From Caldisericia bacterium (lineage in GTDB: Bacteria; Caldisericota; Caldisericia; UBA6126), in NCBI GenBank assembly GCA_035363255.1, contig DAOSES010000006.1, forward strand, positions 25,544-89,543: 64,000 nucleotides of DNA, in the 5' to 3' direction. The translations under genes were made by a program, and so were the position numbers. Positions 17,223-60,156 of this stretch are shown one piece after another. The notes below the pieces were generated by a model, which was given only the letters and a program-made list of their open reading frames with translations, was not told the DNA's origin and did no database searches. The first letter of the stretch is position 1; every line of letters begins with the position of its first letter.

Positions 17223-17856
17223 GAGCCACCGCAGTCATATATACCGGAAGTTCAGGAAAAGTTTTGTTGATTGCTTTTTTGCAGGCATGAAGAGTACTGC
17301 CCGATGTAAAGACATCATCGAGCAACAATACCGATGCTGGCTGAAAGGAGGAGAAAAGGGGAGCTTTTGCAGTAAAAGATAAAGAGGGATTTTTCATACG
17401 CTCCTGAGTTCTTAAGCCTTTTTGCTCTCGATCCTGCAGGCTGAAATCCTTATATAGAAGCTTTGAATATAGAGGCAAACCCGAGCAGACATGAAAACTT
17501 TGAGCAAGCAGTTCGACGGGTTGATATTTTCGACGAAACAATCGGTGCACCGAGCTGGGAACAGGCACAATAATGCTTTTCTGCCAGGGGTAATAGGCTT
17601 GAATGGTTTTCCAGAGTTCCTGTGCAAAAAAACGGGAAAGATGAAACGCCTTGCGATATTTGAACTTCAACATCAAATCCCGGGTCAGATCTACATAGTG
17701 AAAAGCAAACATGACCCAATCGCCCATAGGAGTTTGGCGAAGCGGAAGGATACAACGCGCTTTGTCCAGTTGGTCCGAGCAAGTAGGACAAGCTTGATAG
17801 GCTCGAGAGGTTTCGTTGAGGCAAATCGGACAAAGAGGGCTCATTTCAGCGAACAA
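17215..17856 (-). CDS. ComF-family protein: N-terminal double zinc ribbon plus phosphoribosyltransferase domain.
   Basis: CPICLN...CPTC zinc ribbon and PRTase motif LLLDDVFTSGSTL. Confidence 0.8.
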   Translation of the reverse strand: MFAEMSPLCPICLNETSRAYQACPTCSDQLDKARCILPLRQTPMGDWVMFAFHYVDLTRDLMLKFKYRKAFHLSRFFAQELWKTIQAYYPWQKSIIVPVPSSVHRLFRRKYQPVELLAQSFHVCSGLPLYSKLLYKDFSLQDREQKGLRTQERMKNPSLSFTAKAPLFSSFQPASVLLLDDVFTSGSTLHACKKAINKTFPELPVYMTAVAHG

Positions 17857-20768: not shown

Positions 20769-20840
20769 ACCCCAAAAGTATAGCACAGCATAGCGTAAAA
20801 AAGCACAAACAAACTATTGTTATAGATACATTGATTCATA

Positions 20841-22675: not shown

Positions 22676-23917
22676 TTATTTAAGCAACTTGATTGCATAG
22701 ATCTGATCCTCGGTGCTAAAACAAACCAAGTTTTGATCAACAGCAATTGAAGTAATTTCACCAAGAGCATTATATTTCCATAGTGTTTTTCCAGATTTCG
22801 CCTCAAGACAATAGAGGGAATCTTCAGTGTTGAAAAAAACATGGTCGTTATTAGCGCTGAGATTAAAAATGATCTCATCAAAAGTTTGTTCCCATTGCTT
22901 CTTGCCATTTTGTGGATCCACTGCGAAAAGCTTAGCTTTTATCTCCTTGGTCGAGGAGCTCAATATATCATAAGTGCTTATCAAAACGTGATTGCCAGAT
23001 AATATGGGTCCGTGGTTCGATGTTCCCGTAGCTGTGAATTCCCATAGCTTTTTTTGGTTAGCCAGATTCAAGGCCAGTAAAGTAGTTTCAACTTTTTTTT
23101 CCTCGATAGAGGCATTCTGGGGCGTATTCGGATTAATTGCTCGAGAAAAGGAGTAAAAGGCTGTTTTGTTGTGGATGAGGGGGTGGCTCCAAATGTGTTG
23201 ATCTTCTTGTTCGGAAGGTGTCTCATTATGGAACCTGACTTTCTGACCTGTAGCAGTATCAAGAGCAATAAGCGAATCAAAGCTTTCATTGTTGAGGTAT
23301 AAGTTGCCTTCATCGAAACCTAAGCCATCAATCAAAAAAGGAAAATCCTGGGTATGAATATGATTTTTTAAGTCCAAACTCCATAGTTTTGACCCATTGC
23401 TAATATCAATGGCATGAATAACCCCATTGTCACTGGCATAATAGAGAGTATTCTGATCGATCAGGGGAACGCATGTAAACTTAGATGATGATGCGGCAGG
23501 ATATTTCCATAATAGTTTTCCTGAGGTTGAATCTAAAGCATATAAATAAGCATCACTGCATGCAAAATATACAACTTTGTCCGAAACAGCAGTGCTTGCA
23601 TTTATATAGTCAAACTTACCTGAAAAGCGCATCGCAAAACCCTCGGATTTGTAGTCCCAAAGAAGGCTTCCCTTTGTTTTGTCAATCGCGCTAAAAGTAC
23701 CATCTTGAGTGGACAAAAAGAGATTGTCTTTGCCAAGAACGAGCATGTTGTTGTGTCTTATGGGAAGATCTATCTTCGAAAATACCCACAGAATCGAAGG
23801 TAGATATGGTGTTTTTTCATACATGCTCAAGTTTGGGTCAATTGGTGATTCAATCTTTTTTGCGCATCCAACAGGTATCAGAAGGATTACCAGTAAGGAC
23901 AAAAGAACTGTTTTCAT
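22676..23917 (-). CDS. PQQ-like beta-propeller repeat lipoprotein (BamB-like fold).
   Basis: Signal peptide plus lipobox MKTVLLSLLVILLIPVGC. Repeated PQQ-type motifs (AIDKTKGSLLWDY; YALDSTSGKLLWKY; HAIDISNGSKLWS; ALDTATGQKV). Confidence 0.75.
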   Translation of the reverse strand: MKTVLLSLLVILLIPVGCAKKIESPIDPNLSMYEKTPYLPSILWVFSKIDLPIRHNNMLVLGKDNLFLSTQDGTFSAIDKTKGSLLWDYKSEGFAMRFSGKFDYINASTAVSDKVVYFACSDAYLYALDSTSGKLLWKYPAASSSKFTCVPLIDQNTLYYASDNGVIHAIDISNGSKLWSLDLKNHIHTQDFPFLIDGLGFDEGNLYLNNESFDSLIALDTATGQKVRFHNETPSEQEDQHIWSHPLIHNKTAFYSFSRAINPNTPQNASIEEKKVETTLLALNLANQKKLWEFTATGTSNHGPILSGNHVLISTYDILSSSTKEIKAKLFAVDPQNGKKQWEQTFDEIIFNLSANNDHVFFNTEDSLYCLEAKSGKTLWKYNALGEITSIAVDQNLVCFSTEDQIYAIKLLK

Positions 23918-24072
23918 TTTTTTGTTACCATCTTTAGATAGCTCCAGCATTCCCACACCCCCAACCTTCCTCCTTATTGTTTGCATTTATTTTATTACTT
24001 CTTTTACTTGATACAAGCTTTAGAGTGTACGATAATCCAAGGATGAATGTAAGAAATTTTATCTGATACACA

Positions 24073-24463: not shown

Positions 24464-24491
24464 TTGATAAGCATGTGATGTAGCATACAAT
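24464..24491 (+). promoter_or_regulatory. Sigma-70-type promoter (TTGATA-16-TACAAT) for the LamG-domain gene, about 25 nt downstream of MITE copy B.
   Basis: -35 at 24464-24469; -10 at 24486-24491; ATG at 24498. Confidence 0.55.
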
Positions 24492-24497
24492 ATAGTC

Positions 24498-27080
24498 ATG
24501 AAGCCCCAAATTAGAAGAACTATTTGGATCATAGGCAGTAGTGTGCTGGTTTTCACATTAATGACTGTTATGTCCTGGTTTTTATTGCCAAAGTCTGTTA
24601 CAGAGCCTCCGAAGGATGTCATCAAGAAGAAGGAACCAGTTTTAGCAGAGCCGAACTTAAAAAACAATACTATTGTCTACTCAGAACACGATCAGCCAAA
24701 GTTAGAGCGAATATTTTCCAACACCAAATTGGTAGCATACGATTTTCCTCAAGCTCCTGCAACGATTCATGCTCCTTCCGATAGGGGTCAAAAATCCGAC
24801 CAACTTATCATCAGCGACCATTTGTATCGCAAAAAAATTGTTTTGAAAACCACAGGAAGCCCTAACCCGATGAAAAATTTCCCGATTTGTATCGACCTGG
24901 ACACCCAGCAATGGATTGAAGAGGCCAAGCTGTCTATGATCAGCGAAAACCTATACTTTACCGACGAAGATGGCATCACCCTGCTTCCCTTTCATATTGC
25001 ACATGGCTATGGAAACGAGGCTACCCGTATATGGCTGATTATTCCTGAGCTTCCAGCATGGACAACGCAAAAGGAAATTTATTGTTACTATAGCAGGTCT
25101 TCGGATTATCCAGGTTTTAAACAAATTCCAGGCTTCCCACTCCAGGAAAGCTATTACGGCTGGTATGTCTTAGACGAGTTAAAAGATAAGCATGTGGTGG
25201 ATTTGTCGGGAAACATGAATCCTGCGGAACTGATTATTTCTTCGTATGAATCGGGCTGGTGGGGGCACAACTTTTCCGAGAATGAATCCTATATCTTTTT
25301 CAATGATTGGCGAAAATGGTATGAGCATGAAAGAAACAAGGGAGTTTATCTTACGTTGCCTGGAAAAAACCTTCAAGCACTATCCCAAAAAGGTGCTGTG
25401 GAATTCTGGTTCAAGCCTTATTATATCACTGAGCCCATCATCCAGCATTTTATGACCGATACAGGTCAGCATATCATGATAGGTATGCTTCCCGATCGAT
25501 CCATCTTTCTCCAGTTGGGATCCCGTCAAAACCGAATCATATGGAATACTTTTATTCACCAGGGCAATTGGTATCATCTCCAGCTCAGTTGGGATTTTGC
25601 AAAAAAGCAGGCAAAGCTTTACCTTTACGGAAAAGAAGTGCCTGTAAGATCTGGGCTTTCTTCTTTTTCCTGGAACCCTCCGACAGTATTAGGAGATCTG
25701 CATTTTGGGGGCTACTATGTAGAAAGTTCAAGTTATGGTTTTTCGGGTTTCATGGAAGGATTTCGTCTCCACAAAGCACCCTTGTCTCCCGAGCAGGCCA
25801 ATCAAAACCACAAATACAACCATTTTCGCTATTATTTTCCTACCCATACCATGGAAAAAGAAGAAATTGCTCAGAGCAACAAAGAAGACCAGCTTTCTCT
25901 CGATTTTACTACGAGCAATACTCTCCCCGTGAATGAAAAGATTTCGATCAATACCATCTATGCCATGCCCATTCATTACAGCGATGCTTGGAGTGGAAAA
26001 GTTTACACTGGCAAAGAGGATTTGGTCAACATTATTCAAAATCCTGACGAATACCAGGAAGTATTTGGTATGAGCTCTCATTTCTATTCCTATGTGGGCA
26101 CGGAGGTCAGCATTCAAGAAAGTTTTCTTTTGGAATACATTGCTTTGAAAATTAATGAGCCCAAGCTTATTGAGGATATCAAGATCAGTTTTTCCTGGCT
26201 GGTGGATTGTAAGCACCCATATTACCCCTACCTTTATAGTTCCTTGTCTTGGACGGATAAAGCTCTTGCCTGGCTTTTCCCTCCTGCAAATGCCTGTGGT
26301 CCTTTTTATTCGTATAAGCTGTTGGGGGAAGCCAAGTTGAAGCTGGTGGGCATTGTGAATGGAGTTTGCTGGTATAAGCCGGAAAAACCTTTATATGTAA
26401 ATCCCCTGGCTACAATTATGCAATTGGAATACTTACCCTCCAAAGAAAAAGGAGAGCTCCATATCAAAATGGAAGACTTAATTTTTCTGGACAGTGCCAA
26501 GCAATTCCATCGATCCAAACTACATCGATCCAAACCTGAGCTTTTGTTTGAATATGAGCGAATTGATGAAGAAATCTATCATCATTTTAATTCTGAGTAT
26601 ATTGCCAAGCAGATGCCTATGGAGAAAGGATCTGTGGAGTTGACCACCAATGAGCAGAATGAACTGGTTTTAATGTTGCGCAATATTGGAACGGATCCAA
26701 TTCAGTTAAACGTGAAAAGTAGATATTATTTTCAAGAAAACCTCTTTACTCACTTGTTGATTTCAACAGAGGATCAGCAAACAATACTCGAAATTAGTTT
26801 GTTAGATTTTTACCAGTATCTGAATGATGCTCCTATCCCTGTGGGACATTACCTCTACATACCCCTTCTCTTTGAAGATGAAAGTAAAAACTATGGCGAC
26901 TTAAAAGTGACGCTTCTGCGAAAAAAAGGTTATCTTGATGATTTTGACCAACAGACAAAAATCATTTCCTGGGCATTAGACAACAAGCCTTTCGAATTTC
27001 GTTCCATCAACGAGGAAGGGATGATTTGGAAGGAAGTCCACAAAGACAGCCAGGGTCGTTTGCGCATAGGAGGAGACTAA
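24498..27080 (+). CDS. Membrane-anchored (signal-anchor) protein with a LamG/concanavalin-A-like jelly-roll domain; 860 aa.
   Basis: N-terminal TM IWIIGSSVLVFTLMTVMSWFLL. The central region (WYHLQLSWD...KLYLYGKEV...GFMEGFRLHKAPLSPEQ) matches the LamG pattern. Stop overlaps the next start (TAATGA). Confidence 0.6.
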   Translation: MKPQIRRTIWIIGSSVLVFTLMTVMSWFLLPKSVTEPPKDVIKKKEPVLAEPNLKNNTIVYSEHDQPKLERIFSNTKLVAYDFPQAPATIHAPSDRGQKSDQLIISDHLYRKKIVLKTTGSPNPMKNFPICIDLDTQQWIEEAKLSMISENLYFTDEDGITLLPFHIAHGYGNEATRIWLIIPELPAWTTQKEIYCYYSRSSDYPGFKQIPGFPLQESYYGWYVLDELKDKHVVDLSGNMNPAELIISSYESGWWGHNFSENESYIFFNDWRKWYEHERNKGVYLTLPGKNLQALSQKGAVEFWFKPYYITEPIIQHFMTDTGQHIMIGMLPDRSIFLQLGSRQNRIIWNTFIHQGNWYHLQLSWDFAKKQAKLYLYGKEVPVRSGLSSFSWNPPTVLGDLHFGGYYVESSSYGFSGFMEGFRLHKAPLSPEQANQNHKYNHFRYYFPTHTMEKEEIAQSNKEDQLSLDFTTSNTLPVNEKISINTIYAMPIHYSDAWSGKVYTGKEDLVNIIQNPDEYQEVFGMSSHFYSYVGTEVSIQESFLLEYIALKINEPKLIEDIKISFSWLVDCKHPYYPYLYSSLSWTDKALAWLFPPANACGPFYSYKLLGEAKLKLVGIVNGVCWYKPEKPLYVNPLATIMQLEYLPSKEKGELHIKMEDLIFLDSAKQFHRSKLHRSKPELLFEYERIDEEIYHHFNSEYIAKQMPMEKGSVELTTNEQNELVLMLRNIGTDPIQLNVKSRYYFQENLFTHLLISTEDQQTILEISLLDFYQYLNDAPIPVGHYLYIPLLFEDESKNYGDLKVTLLRKKGYLDDFDQQTKIISWALDNKPFEFRSINEEGMIWKEVHKDSQGRLRIGGD

Positions 27081-30000
27081 TGAAAAGTTTTGGAAAAGCT
27101 GTTTCCAGACTCTTATCCTGGATTATCGTAGCCTTGCTCTCGTTGGGGCTAGCCCTGCCTTTCGGTCCCAGGCCTGTGAAAGCTCAAAGCAGCACTCTGG
27201 CAGACCTATACCTTGATTTGCCTTTCAACTACCGTATGGAAGCCTTCAAGCCCAAGTTTAACCTTGAAGACTACCAGCTCTTTGAAAAGTTTTTTTTACA
27301 TGCGAGTTTGTTTGAAAACCGATATATTCTCAAACGTTCCTATTTTGCCAATTACAGCAAATCTTTTACCTTGATAGACAAGCGTAGTAATGATTTTTAT
27401 ACCCTCCATCTACAGATTTTAAGCTACCTGGTCTTGGAAGATAAGGATAAGATTGAATCGGGGATTCCTTTTTATTTGTCTTTTATCCAAAACTCCCAAG
27501 GGCAAGCTCTGGCCTTTATCCATCGTTCGGAAATGTATGATTTCCCCTTGTATGGCGTGCTTTGTGAAAGCGATGGAAGTTTGATCAAGGAGTGGGAGCT
27601 GTCAAAAAAACCCAATTTAAGTACGTATTCCTATTTTACTCTCTATCAAGAGCTAGCTTCAGATTTGACAAATTCTGGTATGCAGGCCTTTAACAAACCG
27701 CTCAGTGCTTTGTTTTCTGCTTGGATGTGGGGCACTTATCTGAGTGAGCAGAATATACAGACTTCCAACCCCAATCCCTATACCTGGGACTTGCTCGGAG
27801 TTCCCAAAGAGCGAGATGATTTGATGGCTTATTGCTCCGAACAATATCTCATGGAGGAAACCGTGTATTCCTGGAACGAGGATGATTCTCTGCAAGCACT
27901 ACAATGTATTCAAATCCTTTTTCAGGATAGGCGGGAGCTTAGCCAAACTACTTTCACATTTGATCGATCGTATCTTGTGCATCACCCCAATGAAACTATG
28001 GTTTATCTTCCCCTGCTTCAGGTAGTGACGCGTCAAGGTAAAGGCTCCAGTGGAGCCGCTCTATCTGGACTGAAAGATGCTCAAGGCAGGTGGAATTTTT
28101 GGATTCAAGGTAATTTTTACTTTTCAGATCAGACTTATCTGAGATCCCCATCTCTTTATCATACCTTGTTTTCTGGCTATCCTGCTTCTGATAGTTCTTA
28201 TGTGCATTATCTTACGACTCTTGGACTTGCTCTCTATCAGCAAATAGATTCTTCTTGTCTTCCTATGATAGTTTTGTCCCATGCGATTGCGCTATATGAA
28301 GCCAATACTTATAAGAATACAGCGCATACAGCTGATCTTGCGCTAGAAGAACAAACCATGGCTCCTGTTCCCCGAGGAAAACACGCTCATTTGTATCCTG
28401 ATGCTGAAGTTTTTGCAAAGCAGTTTGCTGAAAATACCGAAGTTCAGTCTGACACTCTGGAATATTCCAAAGAGGACTTGGATCAATTAGTACATTTATT
28501 CTTAAACTCAGTTAACAAGCAAGATAATGAGCTTGCATCCTATGATTTTACTCTTCACAAATCGTTTCGCCTTCTCGACCAGAAAACTAAGCAAAGCTAT
28601 CGCTTTTTGCCCAGTTTTAACCTTACGGTCAAGTTTAAAAACCATTCAAGCTTTCCTTTTTTCTCAAATTCTGCCCTTCAATTGCCCGATAAGACCTGGC
28701 TGATTTACACTGGTTATGGTAGCCTCTGTTTCAAGAGTGGTTTTGTAAGTGATTTAGCTTCATGGCCATCCATGAGTATGTATTTAAGCGAGATATATCT
28801 CTCCTACCTACTTCATTATAGTTACCTGCTTCGAAAGCCAATCACCAACGAAGAGCTGAGAGATTTTACTTTCCTCTTTGGGGCAATGTCATGGAGTAAG
28901 TTTGATCAATTGACGAGAGTCATGCCTTATCCAAGCCTAAAAAAGACAACATTATCTTCCGCCAACATGGTGGTAACTGCCAAACCCCGTAAGGTGCAAA
29001 GAGGTGCGAATTATTATATCGACATGCGACTCACTAAAAACCTGGAAAAGAGTGAATGGATCAAGATAAAGTTTCCCAAAGCTTGCGTTTTCCCCTCTCA
29101 AGAGGGCACCAAACCACCAGGAGACCATCTTCCCGAATACATGGAACTCGACTACGAAAACAACATTATAACACTTACCCTTATGAAAAAACTCTTCATA
29201 AAAGAATATGAGGATGGTTGGATACGTATTACTATTCCTGATGTTTATGGCTTCAAAAATCCTCATTTGAGTGGAGCTTATTATTTTGAGTTTTCTACCT
29301 CTGCTGAGATCGAGTGGCAAAAGTCAGACTCAGTCTTGTTTGTGGAAAGCCGTATAGGAGTGCCTGAAGGTATTCCTGAAGTTAACACTGTTCCAAGTAT
29401 CGCAGGGCAAAATGCAAGCTATACGATAGCCTTTAATGTTGGTGAGGGTGGATGGCTTAAACAAAATGAAGCCCTTATAAGGCTCAGATTTCCCAAAGAT
29501 ACGGCATTTTCCATCAATCAGATCCCTGGCGAAATGATTTTAGTTAATGGAGTCCCTTTATCTGTTCGCCCCTCTCCCAGAGGGCAAAACCTTATTTTCA
29601 ACACTCCCGTGGAAGTCGAAGATTCTGAGAGAGTGGTGATCCAGATTGATGCTAAAGCGGGAATTATCAACCCTGCGCAAGCGGGAGACTATACTATTGA
29701 AGTATCCACCCTGCCTGCAGACCCTGAGTGGGTAGCTTCCAAAGCTTTTACGATTAGTCAATCATTCGCTATGGAAGTCAAACCGAGAAAAATAGGGAGC
29801 TCTGCAAGCTATAATTTCACTTTTGAAATAGAAAAAACTCTGGAAAGCTCGGATTGGATTAAACTTGGCTTCCCTCAAGGTACCATCATTGATCCTCCCA
29901 TCCCCGAGCAAGAGCCCGAAAGGACGCTACGTTTAAAAAGATTCAATGAGATTATTGTTATTGGACTTTCTCCTTGTGGTCCTTGTCCAACTCTTCCCAA

Positions 30001-32158
30001 GATCGAGTATTATCCCGATGGCTCCATGAAAAGCATCCAGGTATATACGCCCATTAAAATAGATCCAAGTCTGCCAGGATACAATATTATAAACATAGTT
30101 TGCCCTGAGGAATGCGGATTTAAAACTCCCGCAAAGGAAGGGTTTTATGAGTATAGGGTTTCCACCCAAAGGGAGACCAAAGAAATCAGCACAAGCTTTG
30201 AAATTGTTCAAAGCCAGATAGGTGTTCCGACAGGGGTGCCTCAGGTGATGGTCGATCCTCCGAGCGTGGATGCTCAAGCAGGATACAAGGTCAATTTTAA
30301 TGTAGGTCGAGGGGGATGGTTAAAGGCTCATCGTGATTTTATCCGTTTACGCTTTCCCAAAGGCACTCTTTGGGCTGTTTCTCCCGACAAATTCAAGCCC
30401 GAGTGGATCAAAATCAACGGCAAACCCTTATCCGCCAAAGCAAATCTGAGCTCTGAAACCCTTAGCCTGTTGGTGCCCATGGATATTGAAGATTCGGAGC
30501 GGGTGTTGGTGGAAATCAGCGAAGCTCTTGGCATAACAAACCCTCCCATAGCCGGGGAATATCAAGTGGAAGTAGCTACCTCAGCAGATGCCTGGGCAAA
30601 GTCTGAAGTCTACACGATTACAGGAGAATTGGAGGAAGACAGAATAAAGATAGTGAGTTTTATGATTGATCCTCACCCTCCCTATGCTCATGTCATTAGT
30701 GACTATCAAATTAGAATTCGTTTCAGCGATACCTTGCCCCCCAAAGAAGGCGATCAAGTTCAAATTGATTTGGGCCATCAGGGTTTATTTCTCACCAAAA
30801 CCATTTCAGATCCAAAAGATATGAAGGGGCTTTCTTTGCTTTTGAGGAAAATTCCAAATCCTGACCCTGGGGAATACACTTTGAAGGTTACCCTTCTGGA
30901 AGAGAGCGCAAGCTATACTTATCGAATATTGCATCCAATTCCTACGAGCCGTATTATTCTCGAAGGAGGGAAAAAAGGTAAGAACAATTGGTGGCTTGAG
31001 CCTCCGAAGATTTCATTCGAAGTATCCGATCCTGAGGCTAAAGTGGTTTTCTGGTGGAACGATGATAAGCCAAAGCCAACCAACGTTTCTTATCAAACGC
31101 AATATCCCTTGCCCCGCGTGTTGGATGGGGGTCAATTCAAAGCCAAGCTATGGTATTATGCTTACACCGAATATGGAGAAGAGGAACCCAAGTTTGAAGA
31201 AATCTGGGTGGATACGGTTTTGCCCGAAATAGTTATCGAACAACCTTCAAGCCAAAACGTACTTACTCGAGAGAAAGAGCTTGAAATCAGTGGGCGTGAC
31301 ACCTTAGTTAAAATCTCAATCTATGGAAAAGAGGTTTTAATATACGACACCCACCTTCTCAAGATTAATGGAGTGCTTGTGGATAGAGACCCAAAAGATG
31401 GGAGCTTCTCGCATCAGCTCCTTCTCGAAGAAGGCGCAAACCTGATCCTCATTGAAGCGGAAGACGAGGCTGGCAATCGATTGACCAGAGAATACAAGGT
31501 AGAGCTGGATACCACTCCTCCTGATATTCAGATAGAGTCTCCAAAAGCTATGCAAACGGTAGTCAACCGTGAAAAGAAAGTGCTCATCAAAGGGCGTTTG
31601 GACGACCCCGGAGCAGAGCTGTTAATTCAGGGAAAGATCGTTGATATAGCCGAGGATGGGCAATTTGAGCATGCTTATATTGTCTCAACAGGGCTCAACA
31701 CAATTTCATTAATGGCAAGCGATAAGGTGGGTAACATTCAGAAAAAAGAGCTTCAATTCTGGTTTGGACATACCATTCTCATGCAAATAGGCAACAAAGA
31801 AGCCAGCAACAACGGAATTAAACAGCAACTCCTACTGGCTCCCTTTATTCAAAATGGACGCACCCTGGTGCCTTTTCGATTTATCGGAGAAGAGCTGGGA
31901 GCTAGAATCGATTTTACGTTCCATCCAACAAGCAGATTGGTTCATACAGTGTCCTACCAACTGGAAGAAGACCTGATTGTACTCACCATCGGAAGCAAGA
32001 CTGCTCAGGTGAATGGAGAAGCTGTTGGTCTGGATGTTGCACCTCAGATTATCCAAGGCACTACCGTGGTGCCCATCCGCTTTATCGCAGAAAACCTGGG
32101 TTGTGAAGTGCTTTGGTCGGTACCCGAGCAAAGGATTAGTATCAGCTATCCTAGATAG
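27079..32158 (+). CDS. Giant secreted surface protein (about 1693 aa). It carries Ig-like repeats, a C-terminal [AED(E/D)AGN...LDTxPP] module, and two Cu-amine-oxidase-N-like anchoring domains.
   Basis: Signal peptide MKSFGKAVSRLLSWIIVALLSLGLALPFGPRPVKAQS. Three diverged repeats of about 120 aa (NFNVG(R/E)GGWLK...RLRFPK). C-terminal GRTLVPFRFI and GTTVVPIRFIAENLG motifs. Confidence 0.75.
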
Positions 32159-32753
32159 ACATCATTGATTCATTTATTATAGGCATAAGGCTATTCCAGG
32201 CGAAAATTATCAGCGCAATCGTAAAAACAATACCTAGCACTTGGAGAATAAAAAAGACCATGCCTACCATGTTCCAGTTTCTTTCTCCCTGTTCGAACGA
32301 CTCATAATCCTTCCATTCGCAACGGTTCCAGGAAAGACGACGACAGTGAAAACATTGGAATAGCTTGACAGCAAAAAAGATTAGCAGTATGACCACTAAA
32401 CCAATCAGGATCATAGGAAAAAAAGAACCAAATAAAGAGCTGAAATCTGGGGTAAAATCCATGGTATCCATGGAGTTCAGACTGCTAAACATTCCAGTAA
32501 ACATGTTGATAAGAAAACCTATATACATGAAGTAAAACACAAAGAGATAAAGATAAGAACTAGCCAGTTCCATCACATAAAAATCCCAGAGATTGTGAAA
32601 AAAGTGATACAGATTGTAGGGGACAAAAGGCCCAAAAGAAAACGAGTTGATAAATTGAAGCTTATCTTCCACCTGATCCAGCTCTTTGATTTCTCTTAAA
32701 GAAAACCATTTAAAGGTAGTGCGTTCCAGATTCTTGAATTTCATTAGATCCAT
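32151..32753 (-). CDS. Hypothetical polytopic membrane protein, last gene of the YtrA-like ABC operon.
   Basis: 200 aa with 5 TM helices; co-directional and tightly spaced with the permease genes. Confidence 0.5.
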   Translation of the reverse strand: MDLMKFKNLERTTFKWFSLREIKELDQVEDKLQFINSFSFGPFVPYNLYHFFHNLWDFYVMELASSYLYLFVFYFMYIGFLINMFTGMFSSLNSMDTMDFTPDFSSLFGSFFPMILIGLVVILLIFFAVKLFQCFHCRRLSWNRCEWKDYESFEQGERNWNMVGMVFFILQVLGIVFTIALIIFAWNSLMPIINESMMSI

Positions 32754-32762
32754 GAGAACCTC

Positions 32763-33551
32763 CTAAGTAAAATCTATTTTGTTATCAATTTGCAGTAACA
32801 TTGGTAGGCATAAGAGAGTTGTCCAACCAATTAACAGAGCCACTGAGTTAAAAAAAATCAAGATATTTGTTTGATCAATAAATGCTTTTTTTATGGTGAA
32901 ATAGGGCATAAACATGATCACATCAATAAAATTGTTGTAGATAAACACAAATACTATTGCCGCAAGGACATAAAAGAGATAGTGCGACAGGAGTTTTTTG
33001 AGTTTGTTTTGTTGACTCAAAGAGATGAAGGTAAAGAAAAAAATGCCCACCGCATTGAGGAAATTTAGGCTGAGTATCATGAGTATGTGAAAATAGAAAG
33101 AAACAGAAACATAGGTCATGATTAAGCTATGAGCTGAAGGGTAGTCTTGACTAACTGGAGAAATATAGATTTTTAACAAAATCAGAGAAACAAGATATTG
33201 AAAAGTGCTATAAAAAAAGAGCTCGAGATTAAAACCAATCAGTTTAACTAATAAAACTTGTTTGCTTCTCACTGGCAAAGGACGGAAAAAAGAAAAATTT
33301 TTCAAACGGTAAATATCGTAGCTGGCAAAAAGAGCTAAAAATGTCAGAGGAAGGATATAAAGTAAACCGATCTTTGTAGTAAGAAAGCTGATATACAATT
33401 CAGTACGAAAGAAAATATCAAAGTGTTTGCAAACGGGAAGGAGGTTGAAGTAAACAAACTGAATGTTGTAAATCATCAAGAAAGGAAAAACTATGACAGA
33501 GCGCCTCAAGCGCAGTTTGAAGTCATGTTTTAGTAGTTTTGATGTGTTCAA
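32763..33551 (-). CDS. ABC-2-type membrane permease (paralogue 2 of a tandem pair).
   Basis: 262 aa with 6 TM helices; about 30 % identical to the adjacent 262-aa gene. Confidence 0.6.
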   Translation of the reverse strand: MNTSKLLKHDFKLRLRRSVIVFPFLMIYNIQFVYFNLLPVCKHFDIFFRTELYISFLTTKIGLLYILPLTFLALFASYDIYRLKNFSFFRPLPVRSKQVLLVKLIGFNLELFFYSTFQYLVSLILLKIYISPVSQDYPSAHSLIMTYVSVSFYFHILMILSLNFLNAVGIFFFTFISLSQQNKLKKLLSHYLFYVLAAIVFVFIYNNFIDVIMFMPYFTIKKAFIDQTNILIFFNSVALLIGWTTLLCLPMLLQIDNKIDFT

Positions 33552-33563
33552 TTTGTGTCCCTA

Positions 33564-34352
33564 TCAGATAAAGTCAAGTCTCTTATCGACCAACACCATG
33601 AACGGAATACTAAAAAACAAAGACCCTCCAATCAAAAATAATGCGATATAAATAGCATTGATGGGGCTTACACTCTCAATGTAGTTTTTGTAAAAAGTAC
33701 TTGAAATGAAGGAAACCATGTTGTTGAAGATATGGTTAAAAAAAAGAAGACACAGAATGGCTATACTCGTGTGAATTAGGTAAAAACCGATTTTTGATGA
33801 AGACTTGATATGATTGTTGAAAGAGAAGTAGGAATAAAAAAACAATACGATGGCATTGATCATGTTGATCGCTAAAAGGGTCAGACAATGAAACAACAAG
33901 GAAGAGGATACAAATGTTTTAAATAGGGCATGACTTTCAGGATAAGATATACTTTGAGGCAGGATGAAAGCATAAAAAAACACTAAACTTATCAGGTATT
34001 GAAGAGTGCCAAAGAAAAAAAACTCCGCATTAGCTCCTATCAGCTTTGCCCAAAGGATTCGAGTACTGGAATGGGGAATTTGTCGAAAAAACGCATAGCT
34101 TGGCAGATGATAAATGTCAACAAAAGCAAAAAAAGCTAAAATTGCTAAAGGAAGAAAGTAAACAAAACTTAGCTCGTTGATTAAGAGAGACACCCCTTCG
34201 TTTCGAGCAAAAGTGCTTGTAAGAAGCTGAGAGGCAGGAATGTAGTGAAAAAGCAATACTAGTAAGTTGTAAACAAGAACACCCGAAAGCCCTATATTTA
34301 ATCTATGAATACGCTTTCTATATTCGTATTTGATCAAGCTTAGAATGAACAT
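33564..34352 (-). CDS. ABC-2-type membrane permease (paralogue 1).
   Basis: 262 aa with 6 TM helices; placed immediately after the ABC ATPase gene. Confidence 0.6.
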   Translation of the reverse strand: MFILSLIKYEYRKRIHRLNIGLSGVLVYNLLVLLFHYIPASQLLTSTFARNEGVSLLINELSFVYFLPLAILAFFAFVDIYHLPSYAFFRQIPHSSTRILWAKLIGANAEFFFFGTLQYLISLVFFYAFILPQSISYPESHALFKTFVSSSLLFHCLTLLAINMINAIVLFFYSYFSFNNHIKSSSKIGFYLIHTSIAILCLLFFNHIFNNMVSFISSTFYKNYIESVSPINAIYIALFLIGGSLFFSIPFMVLVDKRLDFI

Positions 34353-35040
34353 ATTTTTCCCAGTATAGGTTTACAATGGACATATTTCGCTCTATGCGTA
34401 AATCTTCAGCGTTGGCTGTGAGTTCAATATGGCCTTGCCTGATAAAAATCACATCACTTAAAATATGTTCAATTTCCTCGACATGATGTGTTGAAATCAT
34501 CATGGCGCAATTATCGTGAAATGCATTGAGGATCTCAGTTAAAAACATATTGCGTGTGACGATGTCCATAGCTTCCAAGGGCTCATCCAGAAGATATATC
34601 GAAGCTCCTACTCGACATAAAACTAAGATTAGTTTTAATGATGAGATGTTTCCGCTGGAAAGTTTGGAAACCATGATTTTGGGGCTAAGATCAAATTGCC
34701 TTAATAGTTTGTTGCAATAAGCCAAATCAAAATCGGGAAAAAAATCCTTGTAAAAATCTACTGCATCAATCACCCTCATCCAGCGAGGAAAGGGATTCCC
34801 CTGTATGAAGCCAGCTATCTGCTTCATTGAAGAGTGATTTAATGGAGCTCTTTGATACAAAATTTGACCCATGCTGGGCTGTGTGTAACGCAACAGAAGC
34901 TTGAAGAGAGATGTCTTCCCGCTACCGTTGGGCCCCAACAAACCAAGCAAGGACCCTGGAAAAATAGTTAAATTTATATCTGTTAAAGCGTATTGAGTGG
35001 AGTACTTTTTATATACTTTTTTTAGCTCAATCGCGCCCAT
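34318..35040 (-). CDS. ABC transporter ATP-binding protein.
   Basis: Walker A GPNGSGKTS, signature LSSGN, Walker B IYLLDEP, H-loop. Confidence 0.85.
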   Translation of the reverse strand: MGAIELKKVYKKYSTQYALTDINLTIFPGSLLGLLGPNGSGKTSLFKLLLRYTQPSMGQILYQRAPLNHSSMKQIAGFIQGNPFPRWMRVIDAVDFYKDFFPDFDLAYCNKLLRQFDLSPKIMVSKLSSGNISSLKLILVLCRVGASIYLLDEPLEAMDIVTRNMFLTEILNAFHDNCAMMISTHHVEEIEHILSDVIFIRQGHIELTANAEDLRIERNMSIVNLYWEKYVHSKLDQIRI

Positions 35041-35407
35041 GCAGATCATCCCACTGATCTGAATATGGCTTAATAATGGTGATGAGTTCTGATTTTGAAA
35101 TACCAAGGCTTCTGAGTTCCTGGAAAAATTCGCTCAGTTTTTCTTTGTAGGCATCTTCTTTGAGGCGGTTGATAAGGTTTTTGTCGTCAGTAACATAATA
35201 ACCTACTCCACGAGCTGGAATTAAAAGCCTGTCACGTACAAGTTCAAACATAACGCGCTGAATAGTGCTGTTGGTAACGTTGTATTCGGCGGCAAGGGCT
35301 CTTACGGAAGGAGTCATGGATCCTGCTCGGTATTCTTTGCGTAAAATTTTGTACTTAATTTGATCTAAGATCTGCAAATAGATTGGCACCTTTGTGTTAA
35401 AATGCAT
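35027..35407 (-). CDS. GntR-family transcriptional regulator, short YtrA-like subtype.
   Basis: 126 aa. GntR wHTH pattern: PIYLQILDQIKYKILRKEYRAGSMTPSVRALAAEYNVTNSTIQRV. Confidence 0.8.
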   Translation of the reverse strand: MHFNTKVPIYLQILDQIKYKILRKEYRAGSMTPSVRALAAEYNVTNSTIQRVMFELVRDRLLIPARGVGYYVTDDKNLINRLKEDAYKEKLSEFFQELRSLGISKSELITIIKPYSDQWDDLHGRD

Positions 35408-43492: not shown

Positions 43493-45106
43493 ATGAAAAA
43501 ATGGGTGATATATCTGTTACCGTTGCTTTTAGTGATCTGTTCAATAGGCGCGCTGTTTTTTACAAAACACCGGATTGAGCAATTTGTGGCAATGTCGCGA
43601 CAGATGCCAATACCTATGGATGTAGAGGATTTGGTTAAAGAGGAATCATTTAATCGGCCCTTACCTATCGATCCAATATACCCAAAAGTAGCTCTCTTGC
43701 TATTGAATGGGATGCCAGAAGAAGTATATGAACTAGTCAAACAAGCCCAAGCAGAGCAAAATGATACTCAGATGAAGTTTTCAAGCACCTTTCTTGCCTG
43801 GGAAACTATGCATGATCTTGACTTTAACTATCAAACCCTTCAAGCTGGGTTAAATCCTCTCCGTGCAGATGCTTTTTTGAAAATTGCATCCAGAGAGTCA
43901 GACGCTTTGCTCAAGATAGTTCAGGATTATGGATTCAAAGCCTACACTACCGACGTTCTTCAAGAGCTATCCTATCCTGAAAAGGATTGGAACGATGCTT
44001 CTTTGATTGTATTAAATGCCAGCAACGACTCCTGGTCTTCAGCTTCTTTTAATGCTCAAGAGATGGCCGACCAAATCGTCGAATTGATCCAGAAAACCGA
44101 TCCAGGAACCTTGTTAGTTATAAGCTCTCTGATTCCAAACCCTCGATTACCTATCTCTTTTAAGCCTCGATATCATTACACAGTTCCCCTAGCCTTTATT
44201 GGCTCCAAAGTTGATCCATCCATTGAACTTCCACTGATGAATGTTCAAGAACTTACTGCCACTATATCCTATGCCCTTGGTTTGCCCTCACCTACTGGTT
44301 GTATGGCAGTGCCATGCTTTACCCTTTTTCCTCAAGAGGATAAGGAGCTATTAAATCGTATGCTTTTCTCAGGACACAACTATCTTAGCAATGCCTTATA
44401 TGGTCTGAGCGACTTTGGTCTCGATGAAGCCATTTCAACCGGTTACTTTTTTCAATATTCTGACAAATTGGAATATGCCAAAAGCACTGACTACAAGCAA
44501 ATGTTGTCTGCAATCCAGCAAATGGATCAAGATTACCGTGAGTTTCTTGACAACGAAAACCAAAAAGCCAATATGATTCCAACGATTGTATCAGTTATTT
44601 TGTTGGCACTGCTCTTGATTGCCTGGTTGTTACTATTGCCCTATTTTTATCGCGGGATCTTGTTTGGTTTGCTTTGGATTGCCTTATGGCTTGTATTTTT
44701 CCATGGAGTATTTCGTTTGCCTATTCAATTGCCCTCCTTACACCAATTTTCCTGGGTTTGGATCCTTTCAGCTCATCTTTGGCCTTTGATTTTATCCACT
44801 CTGGTGCTGGGAACGGGCATGACGCTTATTGCTGGTTTTTGGCTCGACTTACAGCTCAAGGATCTTTTTGTAGATTTTCAGTCTGCGGCTGGTACTTTCC
44901 TTGTTTTTCTCCTTGCGCAGGGTGCCTTTTTTTCAATTCGTGATGGTTTTGTAATTGGCCGAATCATTCCAGCTTTTTTTACTCAAGCCTTAATGTTTCG
45001 AAATCTTGCTCATATCATCTTGCTTCCCTTATTCTTTGGTTTAATGCTTTTATTAGCATCCTCCATCTATGGGATATCTTTAAAAATAGCCCAAAAAAGA
45101 GGGTGA
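43493..45106 (+). CDS. Hypothetical membrane protein: N-terminal TM, extracytoplasmic domain of about 330 aa, C-terminal bundle of about 6 TM helices.
   Basis: Strong RBS AAGGAG. Hydrophobicity pattern; no known catalytic motif recognised. Confidence 0.55.
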   Translation: MKKWVIYLLPLLLVICSIGALFFTKHRIEQFVAMSRQMPIPMDVEDLVKEESFNRPLPIDPIYPKVALLLLNGMPEEVYELVKQAQAEQNDTQMKFSSTFLAWETMHDLDFNYQTLQAGLNPLRADAFLKIASRESDALLKIVQDYGFKAYTTDVLQELSYPEKDWNDASLIVLNASNDSWSSASFNAQEMADQIVELIQKTDPGTLLVISSLIPNPRLPISFKPRYHYTVPLAFIGSKVDPSIELPLMNVQELTATISYALGLPSPTGCMAVPCFTLFPQEDKELLNRMLFSGHNYLSNALYGLSDFGLDEAISTGYFFQYSDKLEYAKSTDYKQMLSAIQQMDQDYREFLDNENQKANMIPTIVSVILLALLLIAWLLLLPYFYRGILFGLLWIALWLVFFHGVFRLPIQLPSLHQFSWVWILSAHLWPLILSTLVLGTGMTLIAGFWLDLQLKDLFVDFQSAAGTFLVFLLAQGAFFSIRDGFVIGRIIPAFFTQALMFRNLAHIILLPLFFGLMLLLASSIYGISLKIAQKRG

Positions 45107-45119
45107 ATCGGAGGTCAAA

Positions 45120-60120: not shown

Positions 60121-60156
60121 TTAAAATGTCGCAAGTGCTGGATCCCCGTGTGACAT
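60121..60156 (-). terminator. Rho-independent terminator (repeat module copy 1) for the 722-aa beta-propeller gene.
   Basis: Minus strand reads atgtcaca-cggggatccagcact-tgcgacat + TTTT, abutting the stop codon. About 36 nt shared with 62355-62389. Confidence 0.65.

What the first reader, a model, noticed from the sequence alone, without database searches (positions are those of the whole stretch)
24498..32158. First membrane-protein + giant-surface-protein pair: LamG-domain anchor protein translationally coupled to a giant Cu-amine-oxidase-N-anchored protein.
An 860-aa signal-anchored LamG-domain protein overlaps the start of the 1693-aa secreted protein by TAATGA. The giant protein carries three diverged Ig-like repeats of about 120 aa and a C-terminal anchoring module. 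Stop/start overlap suggests stoichiometric co-expression of a membrane partner and a surface-layer or adhesin-type cargo. Together with the second pair and the truncated first ORF of the window, these define a non-SLH, non-LPXTG family of envelope proteins (Cu_amine_oxidN1 anchors). The family is poorly characterised functionally.
Basis: partly seen in the sequence, partly recalled or inferred. Interest (0 to 1): 0.55.

Follow-up and report, generated by a model that had tools for sequence, protein, structure and literature searches.

The report
Caldisericia wall-anchored surface protein with LamG neighbour
Two adjacent genes of an uncultivated Caldisericia bacterium encode a membrane-anchored lectin-like protein and a 188-kDa secreted surface protein; the large one is an enlarged copy of a roughly 1,000-residue protein family present across that phylum, and the pairing is a local feature of one small clade, not a general system.

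Summary
The ORFs, the LamG domain, the TAATG stop/start overlap and the C-terminal Cu_amine_oxidN1 module are all real.

- **Source.** The window comes from a Caldisericia MAG. NCBI calls gene 2 a "stalk domain-containing protein".
- **Repeats.** The large protein has four homologous repeats of 133-150 aa in A-B-A-B order, plus a degenerate fifth.
- **Family.** The repeat has no Pfam model of its own. It defines a family of 568 clusters, and 40 of 50 sampled members also end in Cu_amine_oxidN1.
- **Distribution.** Several Caldisericota MAGs carry two copies of about 1,000 aa each, in two conserved housekeeping contexts. None of 27 genome loci has a LamG neighbour.
- **LamG protein.** It occurs only in the window's close clade (77-95% identity), always next to the large gene. 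Two distant homologues exist, and one of them is coupled to a GH3 gene instead.
- **Second pair.** Its membrane partner is unrelated. The two giants share only their C-terminal ~250 aa.
- **Overlap.** Stop/start overlap is routine here: 16 of 32 same-strand neighbour pairs overlap.

Best reading: a non-covalently wall-bound surface protein derived from the phylum's candidate S-layer or sheath family, with a clade-specific glycan-binding accessory protein. Interest is moderate to low.

The parts
24464..24491 (+). Sigma-70-like promoter match (TTGATA-16-TACAAT) ending 7 nt before the ATG of gene 1. If real, it implies a leaderless or near-leaderless mRNA.
   Evidence: The number of such matches in the region is not above the shuffle expectation, so this is weak. 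No Shine-Dalgarno is visible before 24498.
24498..27080 (+). Gene 1: 860-aa type-II (signal-anchored) membrane protein. NCBI HOI24482.1, 'hypothetical protein'.
   Evidence: Full-length orthologues at 77-95% identity. dN/dS 0.17 against the 78%-identical orthologue.
24516..24590 (+). N-terminal transmembrane anchor (residues 7-31), preceded by K2, R6 and R7. No obvious signal-peptidase site.
   Evidence: Kyte-Doolittle scan; sequence.
24951..25100 (+). DUF2341-like segment (residues 152-201).
   Evidence: Pfam PF10102, 22.8 bits against a cut-off of 23.4. The 32%-identical homologue P0009 carries a precomputed PF10102 hit.
25344..25796 (+). Laminin_G_3 / concanavalin-A-like lectin domain (residues 283-433).
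   Evidence: Pfam PF13385, E=2.5e-11. Profile hit to pentraxin PTX3 in the PDB, E=0.07. Foldseek on the low-confidence model recovers only LamG/pentraxin/BoNT-Hc jelly rolls.
25815..27077 (+). Orphan C-terminal region of gene 1 (residues 440-860), mostly beta strand in the model.
   Evidence: No Pfam, NCBIfam or PDB match. Conserved in P0009 at 30% identity. The AlphaFold2 model has low confidence.
27069..27082 (+). Gene junction: GGAGGA Shine-Dalgarno, TAA stop of gene 1 and ATG of gene 2 sharing one base (TAATG).
   Evidence: In the 77%-identical relatives the same two genes are separated by 25 nt carrying an AGGAGG.
27080..32158 (+). Gene 2: 1692-aa secreted surface protein. NCBI HOI24483.1, 'stalk domain-containing protein'. 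Mature form 188 kDa, pI 5.2.
27080..27184 (+). Sec-type signal peptide (residues 1-35, ...PVKA/QSS). No lipobox cysteine.
   Evidence: Sequence; hydrophobicity scan.
27185..28921 (+). Orphan N-terminal 'head' region (residues 36-614). Present in the window, P0010 (98%) and P0011 (80%). Absent from the 77%-identical relative P0012, which starts directly with repeat A1.
   Evidence: No Pfam, NCBIfam or PDB match. No homologue in any fetched locus. AlphaFold2 pLDDT 39.5.
28952..29350 (+). Repeat A1 (residues 625-757).
29351..29761 (+). Repeat B1 (residues 758-894).
   Evidence: 43% identical to B2.
29762..30211 (+). Repeat A2 (residues 895-1044). It carries the family-typical insertion with the invariant SPCxxC motif (GLSPCGPCPTLP).
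30212..30625 (+). Repeat B2 (residues 1045-1182).
30626..30934 (+). Degenerate fifth repeat (residues 1183-1285).
   Evidence: it keeps the ...NPxxGxY... signature. Aligns with the equivalent domain of P0034.
30935..31765 (+). Ig-like spacer region: one unassigned beta domain (1286-1378) and two Glucodextran_B domains (1379-1475 and 1476-1562).
   Evidence: Pfam PF09136, 64.1 bits, two stretches. The two copies are homologous, E=5e-10.
31766..32155 (+). C-terminal Cu_amine_oxidN1 ('stalk') module (residues 1563-1692) made of two half-repeats of about 60 aa. It is the putative wall-binding anchor.
   Evidence: Pfam PF07833, E=1.7e-27, two stretches. 34% identical to the C-terminus of the 1849-aa protein. 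The same module is found on unrelated Caldisericota surface proteins.

Best explanation
This is an operon-like two-gene unit in an uncultivated Caldisericia bacterium.

**Gene 2**
- It encodes a Sec-secreted, acidic, 188-kDa cell-surface protein.
- It is an enlarged paralogue of a ~1,000-aa family found throughout Caldisericota. Family architecture: signal peptide, tandem beta-rich repeats of about 140 aa (distantly DUF2808-like), Ig-like spacers, then a C-terminal Cu_amine_oxidN1 module.
- In this clade the A-B repeat pair was duplicated. In a sub-clade a 580-aa orphan head was added at the N-terminus.

**Inferred mechanism for gene 2**
- The C-terminal Cu_amine_oxidN1 module holds the protein non-covalently on the cell wall (peptidoglycan or a secondary wall polymer).
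- The Ig-like domains and repeats form an extended stalk or layer, and the N-terminal head points outward.

**Gene 1**
- It encodes a single-pass membrane protein whose ectodomain carries a DUF2341-like segment, a LamG/ConA-type lectin domain and an orphan 420-aa C-terminal region.
- It is most likely a glycan-binding accessory factor at the membrane-wall interface, co-transcribed with gene 2. It may help place or retain gene 2's product.
- It is specific to this clade and is not a general partner of the family.

**Shown versus inferred**
- Shown: gene structures, domains, repeat homology, family membership, phylogenetic distribution, conserved adjacency within the clade, and purifying selection.
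- Inferred: wall binding, orientation, glycan binding and any physical or functional link between the two proteins.
For: **Domains and junction**
-.

**Source organism**
- Caldisericia MAG.

**Repeat family**
- A profile of the four repeats finds 568 clusters at E<=1e-3 and 120 at E<=1e-30, with arrays of up to 19 copies.
- 40 of 50 sampled members also carry Cu_amine_oxidN1, 26 carry Glucodextran_B and 9 match DUF2808.

**Relationship to the ~1,000-aa proteins**
- The giant's last 798 aa align over most or all of their length with proteins of roughly 920-1015 aa from Caldisericota MAGs at 28-34% identity. The alignment with P0034 is 44-51% identical.
- P0034 comes from the same metagenome sample and the same HOI accession series as the window.

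**Genomic context of the family**
- 27 genome loci were recovered, nearly all from Caldisericota.
- They fall into two conserved housekeeping contexts, and several MAGs carry one copy of each: sucCD-ychF-amidohydrolase-REP-...-rpoB, and ftsW/rodA-REP-Memo-deacetylase-...-subtilase. ('REP' is this report's label for a gene or protein of the repeat family.) This suggests core, probably abundant, envelope proteins.

**Within-clade conservation of the pair**
- All five informative contigs of the 77-78% relatives keep LamG immediately followed by the large gene. This holds although the upstream flank differs: IS110 transposase plus an RHS toxin there, a PQQ propeller here.
- dN/dS is 0.17 and 0.19, with nearly equal dN of 0.133 and 0.142.

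**Literature**
- Syntrophomonas wolfei Swol_0133 has a C-terminal IPR012854 domain, is the most abundant membrane-fraction protein and is a predicted S-layer protein (PMC3582634).
- Cu_amine_oxidN1 is listed among the cell-wall-binding modules of Paenibacillus wall hydrolases (bioRxiv 10.64898/2026.09.23.753664).
- Caldisericum exile shows an outer-membrane-like envelope by electron microscopy but has no BamA (PMC4104836).
Against: - Nothing here shows wall binding, surface location, abundance or lattice formation.
- Both structure predictions failed (pLDDT 47.7 and 39.5). The head of gene 2 and the C-terminal region of gene 1 therefore remain without any functional clue.
- Adjacency is conserved only over a shallow evolutionary depth (77% identity or more). 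That could reflect recent common ancestry rather than selection for linkage.
- The distant LamG homologue sits next to a GH3 gene, not a repeat-family gene. The closest GTDB relatives of this paralogue type (L012 and L013, 52-54% identity in the A2 repeat) have no LamG gene upstream, though those contigs are short.
- Co-transcription is inferred from spacing only.
Confidence: 0.6

Rival explanations
1. A recurring family of 'membrane partner plus giant Cu_amine_oxidN1-anchored cargo' pairs, in which the stop/start overlap enforces stoichiometric co-expression and the membrane protein is needed to display the cargo.
For: - There are two such juxtapositions in one window (24498-32158 and 43493-50669).
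- The TAATG overlap has a good Shine-Dalgarno.
- Adjacency is retained in all close relatives despite a different upstream flank.
Against: - The two membrane proteins are unrelated in sequence and topology: one is single-pass with LamG, the other is polytopic with no Pfam hit.
- The giants share only the C-terminal ~250 aa.
- None of 27 genome loci, nor the four further contexts of family members, has a LamG homologue in the flanks fetched.
- No homologue of the second pair's membrane protein occurs in any fetched locus.
- In the 77% relatives the overlap is replaced by a 25-nt spacer.
- Overlaps are seen in 16 of 32 same-strand pairs of this window, including unrelated genes.
Confidence: 0.1
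2. Gene 2 is a fibrillar adhesin or displayed enzyme rather than a structural layer protein. The wall anchor and repeat stalk serve only to present the orphan 580-aa N-terminal head, which binds a substrate, a partner cell or a polymer. The LamG protein is an unrelated neighbour or a co-receptor.
For: - The anchor-stalk-head architecture fits.
- The head is a recent, clade-restricted addition at the end farthest from the anchor.
- The same metagenome, and probably the same MAG, also encodes a canonical 941-aa paralogue that could do the structural job.
- Other Cu_amine_oxidN1 proteins in the window carry binding-type or propeller domains: Sortilin/BNR and CarboxypepD_reg.
Against: - The head has no detectable similarity to any binding or catalytic family.
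- The sister lineage lacks the head entirely yet keeps the gene and its LamG neighbour.
- This rival differs from the best explanation only in emphasis.
Confidence: 0.2
3. The LamG/DUF2341 protein belongs to a type-IV-pilus-like apparatus as a PilY-like tip adhesin, as proposed for archaeal DUF2341 proteins. The large protein would be part of the same appendage.
For: DUF2341 proteins are encoded in archaeal type IV pilus loci, are proposed to be tip adhesins (PMC4858521), and are required for transformation in Methanococcus (PMC10133366).
Against: - The DUF2341 match is below the Pfam cut-off.
- The N-terminus is a plain signal anchor, not a class III prepilin signal.
- No pilin, prepilin peptidase, PilB/PilT ATPase or PilC gene is present among the window ORFs of at least 150 aa that were scanned.
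Confidence: 0.03
4. The two genes are functionally unrelated neighbours. The LamG protein acts in cell-wall glycan turnover or sensing, as hinted by its distant homologue being coupled to a NagZ-type GH3. It merely shares a transcript with a surface-protein gene.
For: - P0009 (32% identity over 84% of the length) overlaps a 370-aa GH3 gene by 11 nt.
- Unrelated genes commonly overlap in this genome.
Against: - The pair stays together across a flank rearrangement.
- The two genes evolve at nearly identical rates.
- Both products are extracytoplasmic.
Confidence: 0.2

Closest known systems
Swol_0133 of Syntrophomonas wolfei (predicted S-layer protein with a C-terminal copper-amine-oxidase-like domain, IPR012854)
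   Same: Secreted, acidic, large surface protein whose only recognisable module is a C-terminal Cu_amine_oxidN1-type domain. It has no SLH domain. It provides experimental precedent for high abundance in the envelope fraction (PMC3582634).
   Different: - It comes from a different phylum (Bacillota).
- It is 78 kDa, against 188 kDa here.
- No LamG neighbour is reported for it.
SLH-anchored S-layer and surface proteins of Bacillota (for example Bacillus anthracis Sap/EA1, Paenibacillus alvei SpaA)
   Same: The logic is the same: a Sec-secreted multidomain protein held non-covalently on the wall by a dedicated terminal module, with many different passenger proteins sharing the same anchor.
   Different: - The anchor here is Cu_amine_oxidN1, not SLH, and its ligand is unknown.
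- The anchor is C-terminal.
- A fused TagA/CsaB-like enzyme is encoded 3.7 kb away, but no link to this anchor is shown.
Caldisericota ~1,000-aa 'stalk domain-containing proteins' (for example HOI25757.1 = P0034)
   Same: The repeat types are the same, including the A-type domain with SPCxxC. The Ig/Glucodextran_B spacers and the C-terminal module are also shared. Identity is 44-51% over the shared ~800 aa.
   Different: - The window protein has an extra A-B repeat pair and a 580-aa orphan head.
- It lies in a different genomic context.
- It has the LamG gene upstream.
DUF2341-LamG ectodomain proteins (N-terminal appendages of ExbB/TolQ-like channel subunits; archaeal pilus-locus proteins)
   Same: They share the tandem DUF2341-like plus LamG/ConA-like beta-sandwich ectodomain (PMC12505986, PMC4858521).
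   Different: - There is no MotA/ExbB channel domain and only a single transmembrane helix.
- There are no pilus genes nearby.
- The additional 420-aa C-terminal region is seen only in the few homologues found.

Membership tests
Cu_amine_oxidN1 (PF07833) domain proteins | Match to the Pfam model above the gathering score | tested here: met
   95.9 bits against a cut-off of 24.2, residues about 1563-1692, two stretches.
Laminin_G_3 / ConA-like lectin superfamily (PF13385) | Match to the Pfam model above the gathering score | tested here: met
   44.4 bits against 27.6, residues 283-433. Foldseek on the (poor) model hits only LamG/pentraxin/BoNT-Hc jelly rolls.
DUF2341 (PF10102) | Match to the Pfam model above the gathering score | tested here: inconclusive
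   22.8 bits against a cut-off of 23.4. The 32%-identical homologue P0009 has a precomputed PF10102 hit.
Caldisericota ~1,000-aa repeat + Cu_amine_oxidN1 surface-protein family | Collinear alignment of repeats, Ig spacers and C-terminal module with family members | tested here: met
   Residues 895-1692 align with proteins of roughly 920-1015 aa from Caldisericota MAGs over most or all of their length, at 28-51% identity.
Caldisericota ~1,000-aa repeat + Cu_amine_oxidN1 surface-protein family | A-type first domain with the invariant SPCxxC...LP insertion | tested here: met
   Repeat A2 carries GLSPCGPCPTLP. The motif is invariant in 13 aligned members. A1 lacks it.
Caldisericota ~1,000-aa repeat + Cu_amine_oxidN1 surface-protein family | Conserved housekeeping context (type I near sucCD/ychF/rpoB, or type II near ftsW/rodA) | tested here: not met
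   The window gene lies between the LamG gene and a convergent ABC-transporter operon. It is therefore an extra paralogue, not an orthologue of either core copy.
DUF2808 (PF10989) | Match to the Pfam model | tested here: inconclusive
   The window protein gives no hit at E<=0.1. Nine of 50 family members do hit, best E=9e-13. The relationship is distant at most.
SLH-anchored surface proteins | SLH domain(s) | tested here: not met
   No SLH hit in either protein at E<=0.1.
Sortase (LPXTG) substrates | C-terminal LPXTG motif followed by a hydrophobic segment and a charged tail | tested here: not met
   The protein ends ...EQRISISYPR inside the Cu_amine_oxidN1 module. The only hydrophobic segment is the N-terminal signal peptide.
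S-layer proteins (functional class) | Forms a regular two-dimensional lattice and is a dominant envelope protein | not testable with these tools
   Only indirect support: acidic pI of 5.2, core-genome contexts of the paralogues, and the Swol_0133 precedent (PMC3582634).
Type IV pilus-like systems with DUF2341 tip adhesins | Class III signal peptide and/or linked pilin, ATPase and peptidase genes | tested here: not met
   The N-terminus MKPQIRRTIWIIGSS... is a plain signal anchor. None of the window ORFs scanned is a pilus gene.
Translationally coupled operon pair | Stop/start overlap conserved among orthologous pairs and rarer than the genome background | tested here: not met
   The overlap is replaced by a 25-nt spacer with its own AGGAGG in the 77% relatives. 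In the window, 16 of 32 same-strand pairs overlap.

The most novel reading that the evidence does not exclude
The repeat + Cu_amine_oxidN1 family, seen here in two conserved housekeeping contexts with several Caldisericota MAGs carrying one copy of each, is the building block of the unexplained 'outer-membrane-like' envelope seen by electron microscopy in Caldisericum exile, a phylum that lacks BamA and LPS genes. On this reading Cu_amine_oxidN1 is the phylum's generic wall anchor, playing the role SLH plays elsewhere. It might bind the pyruvylated wall polymer made by the fused GT4-TagA-CsaB enzyme encoded nearby. The LamG protein would be a membrane-side tether or assembly factor for a specialised, head-bearing member of that layer.
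Probability: 0.15. Interest if true: 0.7.

Novelty: new member of a known kind. Interest (0 to 1): 0.35.

Why it matters
Taken alone, the locus is an ordinary surface-protein operon of an uncultivated bacterium. Its value is as an entry point to two things.

- **An unmodelled repeat family.** It exposes a sizeable repeat-domain family with no Pfam model of its own: 568 clusters at 50% identity. Members occur in Caldisericota, at least one Bacillota genus and a Bathyarchaeia MAG. The repeat is usually combined with a Cu_amine_oxidN1 C-terminus.
- **Candidates for the Caldisericota envelope.** It gives concrete candidate proteins for the composition of the Caldisericota cell envelope, which is still unresolved. 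Electron microscopy shows an outer-membrane-like layer, yet the phylum has no BamA or LPS genes.

If Cu_amine_oxidN1 proves to be a general wall anchor with a defined ligand, that would add a fourth major non-covalent anchoring system beside SLH, CWB2 and LysM-type modules.

Tried and rejected
- **Structure prediction of the LamG protein.** AlphaFold2 with a 9-sequence alignment gave pLDDT 47.7. Foldseek against the PDB recovered only the LamG jelly roll, with TM-scores of 0.18 or less on the query. It says nothing about the C-terminal 420 aa.
- **Structure prediction of the giant's N-terminal 580 aa.** AlphaFold2 with 3 sequences gave pLDDT 39.5. The model is unusable, so no fold search was run.
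- **PDB sequence searches.** The giant gave nothing. The LamG profile gave only PTX3 at E=0.07.
- **NCBIfam.** Nothing meaningful.
- **Word-indexed homology searches.** They returned only 9, 1 and 2 proteins. The family became visible only with the HMM profile of the internal repeats.
- **First genome-contig scan with the LamG alignment.** No relatives found. The metagenome scan added only close relatives and one partial 35% hit.
- **Homology of the head or the LamG C-region to conserved neighbours of the Caldisericota family genes.** No hits.
- **Homologues of the second pair in the fetched loci.** I looked for the membrane protein and the N-terminal part of the second giant. None were found.
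- **Swol_0133 among family members of similar size.** Not found among the ten looked up, and its sequence could not be fetched.
- **Rfam and tRNA scans of the window.** Empty.
- **Type IV pilus reading of DUF2341.** Rejected for lack of any pilus genes or a prepilin signal.

Full report
**1. Observation**

The ORF list shows 24498-27080 (+, 860 aa, ATG start) and a long ORF ending at 32158. The junction reads ...GGAGGAGACTAATGAAAAG.... The TAA stop of gene 1 (27078-27080) shares its last base with the ATG of gene 2 (27080), and a GGAGGA Shine-Dalgarno lies 5 nt upstream. Gene 2 is therefore 27080-32158 and encodes 1692 aa.

Gene 1 has one hydrophobic segment, residues 7-31, after K2, R6 and R7, so it is a signal anchor. 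Gene 2 has a Sec-type signal peptide (...PVKA/QSS).

Pfam results:
- Gene 1: Laminin_G_3 at 283-433 (44.4 bits, cut-off 27.6) and DUF2341 at 152-201 (22.8 bits, just under the cut-off of 23.4).
- Gene 2: Cu_amine_oxidN1 at the C-terminus (95.9 bits) and Glucodextran_B in two stretches (64.1 bits).

**2. Corrections to the observation**

Segment-wise BLASTP and alignment show four homologous repeats of 133-150 aa in A-B-A-B order, not three of about 120 aa. They are A1 625-757, B1 758-894, A2 895-1044 and B2 1045-1182. B1 and B2 are 43% identical (E=1e-36). A1/A2 score E=9e-11 and A1/B2 E=5e-8. A degenerate fifth copy lies at 1183-1285.

After the repeats come an unassigned beta domain, two homologous Glucodextran_B domains (E=5e-10) and the ~130-aa Cu_amine_oxidN1 module. 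Residues 36-614 match nothing in Pfam, NCBIfam or the PDB.

The stop/start overlap is not remarkable in this genome. With longest-ORF starts, 16 of 32 same-strand neighbouring ORF pairs in the window overlap. These include pth/mfd (4 nt), mfd/mazG (10 nt) and the HD protein with an M50 peptidase (1 nt).

**3. Source**

Exact look-ups place the window in a Caldisericia MAG. Gene 1 is HOI24482.1, 'hypothetical protein', and gene 2 is HOI24483.1, 'stalk domain-containing protein'. Identical contigs occur in anaerobic metagenomes: ERZ1756056, JGI 3300009707 and several SRA runs.

What the literature says about this phylum:
- Caldiserica lacks LPS genes (PMC5007114).
- It is treated as monoderm (bioRxiv 10.1101/2021.05.31.446380; PMC12204202).
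- Caldisericum exile shows an outer-membrane-like envelope by electron microscopy but has no BamA and no predicted outer-membrane proteins (PMC4104836).

The composition of its outer layer is therefore an open question.

**4. What the large protein is**

Word-indexed searches found almost nothing. A profile of the four internal repeats, run against 1.84 billion cluster representatives, found 568 proteins at E<=1e-3 and 120 at E<=1e-30. Arrays reach 19 copies, in proteins of up to 4,669 aa.

Of 50 sampled members, 40 also carry Cu_amine_oxidN1, 26 carry Glucodextran_B and 9 match DUF2808 (best E=9e-13). The repeat has no Pfam model of its own and is at most distantly DUF2808-like.

Many members are 920-1,015 aa long and share one architecture: signal peptide, an A-type repeat with an invariant SPCxxC insertion, B-type repeats, Ig spacers, then Cu_amine_oxidN1.

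The window protein's last 798 aa align collinearly with these proteins:
- 44-51% identity to P0034 (941 aa);
- 28-34% identity to the Caldisericota MAG proteins.

P0034 is HOI25757.1. It comes from the same JGI sample and the same accession series as the window, so it is probably from the same MAG. I did not verify that.

A genome scan with the A-type motif returned 27 loci. Nearly all are Caldisericota MAGs, and several MAGs contribute two loci each. The loci fall into two conserved contexts:
- Type I: polysaccharide deacetylase, sucC, sucD, ychF, amidohydrolase, REP, a 455-475-aa protein, then rpoB.
- Type II: ftsW/rodA, REP, Memo, polysaccharide deacetylase, amino-acid kinase, S8 subtilase.

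Here 'REP' is my label for a gene or protein of this repeat family. Such core-genome positions fit constitutive, probably abundant, envelope proteins.

The repeat also occurs in a Caldalkalibacillus protein (WP_025027179.1) and in a Bathyarchaeia MAG.

The window gene lies in neither conserved context. It is an extra paralogue with a duplicated A-B unit. The 77%-identical relative P0012 (1,096 aa) has the duplication but starts directly with A1. The 580-aa head is present only in the window, P0010 (98%) and P0011 (80%).

**5. The LamG protein**

In 5.8 billion proteins it has only nine detectable relatives. Eight are 77-95% identical, and one (P0009) is 32% identical over 84% of the length. 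A metagenome scan added one partial 35% hit.

Within the close clade, every informative contig keeps the LamG gene immediately upstream of the large gene. This holds even though the upstream flank differs: an IS110 transposase and an RHS toxin cluster there, a PQQ beta-propeller gene here. In those relatives the overlap is replaced by a 25-nt spacer with its own AGGAGG.

Both genes are under purifying selection and diverge at nearly the same rate. Against L006, dN/dS is 0.17 for gene 1 and 0.19 for gene 2, with dN of 0.133 and 0.142.

Outside the clade the link disappears:
- None of the 27 genome loci, nor the four extra contexts of family members, has a LamG homologue in the flanks fetched (up to 10 kb; several contigs are shorter).
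- P0009 overlaps a 370-aa NagZ-type GH3 gene instead.

**6. The 'second pair'**

The 537-aa protein at 43493-45106 is polytopic and has no Pfam match. It is unrelated to the LamG protein (best E=3.4).

The 1849-aa protein shares only its last ~250 aa with gene 2, namely Glucodextran_B plus Cu_amine_oxidN1 at 34% identity. Otherwise it carries CarboxypepD_reg-type domains. The truncated first ORF combines a Sortilin/BNR propeller with the same C-terminal module.

In the Caldisericota MAG loci the same module sits on further unrelated proteins: a cohesin protein, an SBBP propeller protein, and five tandem genes in L040.

What unites these proteins is a shared C-terminal module, as SLH unites surface proteins in other phyla. 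It is not a two-gene system.

**7. Mechanism**

Shown: the domain order, family membership, distribution, within-clade linkage and purifying selection.

Inferred:
- The Cu_amine_oxidN1 module binds the wall non-covalently. Pfam notes that this domain occurs on wall hydrolases and amidases. It is listed among wall-binding modules in Paenibacillus (bioRxiv 10.64898/2026.09.23.753664). In Syntrophomonas wolfei the most abundant envelope protein, Swol_0133, carries only this domain (PMC3582634).
- Because the anchor is C-terminal, the repeats and the orphan head project outward.
- The LamG ectodomain of gene 1 binds a glycan at the membrane-wall interface and assists or retains gene 2's product.

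I put 0.6 on this overall picture. I put much less on any specific role for the LamG protein.

**8. Rivals**

- An adhesin or displayed-enzyme reading is compatible with the data and differs mainly in emphasis.
- A type-IV-pilus reading of DUF2341 (PMC4858521, PMC10133366) fails for lack of a prepilin signal and of any pilus gene among the window ORFs scanned.
- Mere neighbourhood of unrelated genes remains possible.

**9. What failed**

Both AlphaFold2 runs were of low confidence because the alignments are shallow. The fold search recovered only the LamG jelly roll. The head of gene 2 and the C-terminal 420 aa of gene 1 remain without any functional clue.

**10. Verdict**

The locus is real, its domains are correctly recognised and its source organism is now identified. 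It is a new member of a known kind: a non-covalently wall-anchored multidomain surface protein that NCBI already labels a 'stalk domain-containing protein'. It has a clade-specific neighbour of unknown role.

The more interesting result lies outside the finding. A sizeable repeat family with no Pfam model of its own occupies conserved core-genome positions in Caldisericota, a phylum whose outer envelope is not understood. Interest: 0.35.

Noticed in passing
window 17841-20786 (-): A 981-aa single polypeptide fuses GT4 (Glyco_transf_4 + Glycos_transf_1), WecG/TagA and a polysaccharide pyruvyl transferase (CsaB-like). This looks like the pathway for a pyruvylated secondary wall polymer in one protein. 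The local GC is 0.49, against about 0.41 for the window. It lies 3.7 kb from the pair, and the window's surface proteins carry Cu_amine_oxidN1 rather than SLH.
   Followed up: partly
L018 12842-14266; L042 8974-10341; L028 2623-3918: In type I Caldisericota loci the family gene is always followed by a secreted 455-475-aa protein. That protein has a thioredoxin-like GGWCGACP motif and a C-terminal dockerin (weak Pfam hit; DxDxNG-type repeats are visible in the sequence). Type II loci encode a cohesin + Glucodextran_B + Cu_amine_oxidN1 protein. This suggests cohesin-dockerin display on the wall, and possibly a thiol oxidoreductase acting on the invariant SPCxxC of the A-type repeat.
   Followed up: partly
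L040 76-14458 (JGI 3300045051): Five tandem genes (888-982 aa) all end in Cu_amine_oxidN1. Three of them are family members. The same sample holds the distant LamG homologue P0009.
   Followed up: no
L039 (JGI 3300009707, Ga0116195_1004226) 3002-5827: P0034 / HOI25757.1 is a canonical 941-aa family member. It comes from the same metagenome and accession series as the window, and lies after fur and a peroxiredoxin gene, with no LamG gene nearby.
   Followed up: yes
window 43493-45106 and 45120-50669 (+): The second 'pair'. A 537-aa polytopic membrane protein with no Pfam or NCBIfam match is followed, 13 nt downstream, by an 1849-aa protein with CarboxypepD_reg domains and the shared Glucodextran_B + Cu_amine_oxidN1 end. 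No homologues of either N-terminal part occur in any fetched locus.
   Followed up: partly
window 3-1250 (+): A truncated ORF combines a Sortilin/Vps10-type (BNR) propeller with Cu_amine_oxidN1. It is followed by a sigma-70 family gene at 1222-1953.
   Followed up: no
window 32151-35407 (-): A convergent operon comprises a GntR regulator, an ABC ATPase, two 262-aa permease-like membrane proteins and a 200-aa membrane protein. Its last gene overlaps the 3' end of gene 2 by 8 nt, and no terminator-like hairpin lies between them.
   Followed up: no
L005 86-9806 / L006: In the 77% relatives the LamG-giant pair sits just downstream of an IS110 transposase, an RHS/YD-repeat toxin cluster and an IS21 element. 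The pair therefore lies in a rearranged, mobile-element-rich region there.
   Followed up: no
window 60156-62324 (-) and 22676-23986 (-): Two further secreted or anchored beta-propeller proteins are present: DUF5050 (722 aa) and PQQ_2/BamB-like (436 aa). The window is rich in envelope proteins.
   Followed up: no
P0088 (MEM3581405.1) and P0242 (WP_025027179.1): The ~140-aa repeat is not confined to Caldisericota. It occurs in a Bathyarchaeia MAG protein and in a Caldalkalibacillus 'copper amine oxidase N-terminal domain-containing protein'.
   Followed up: partly
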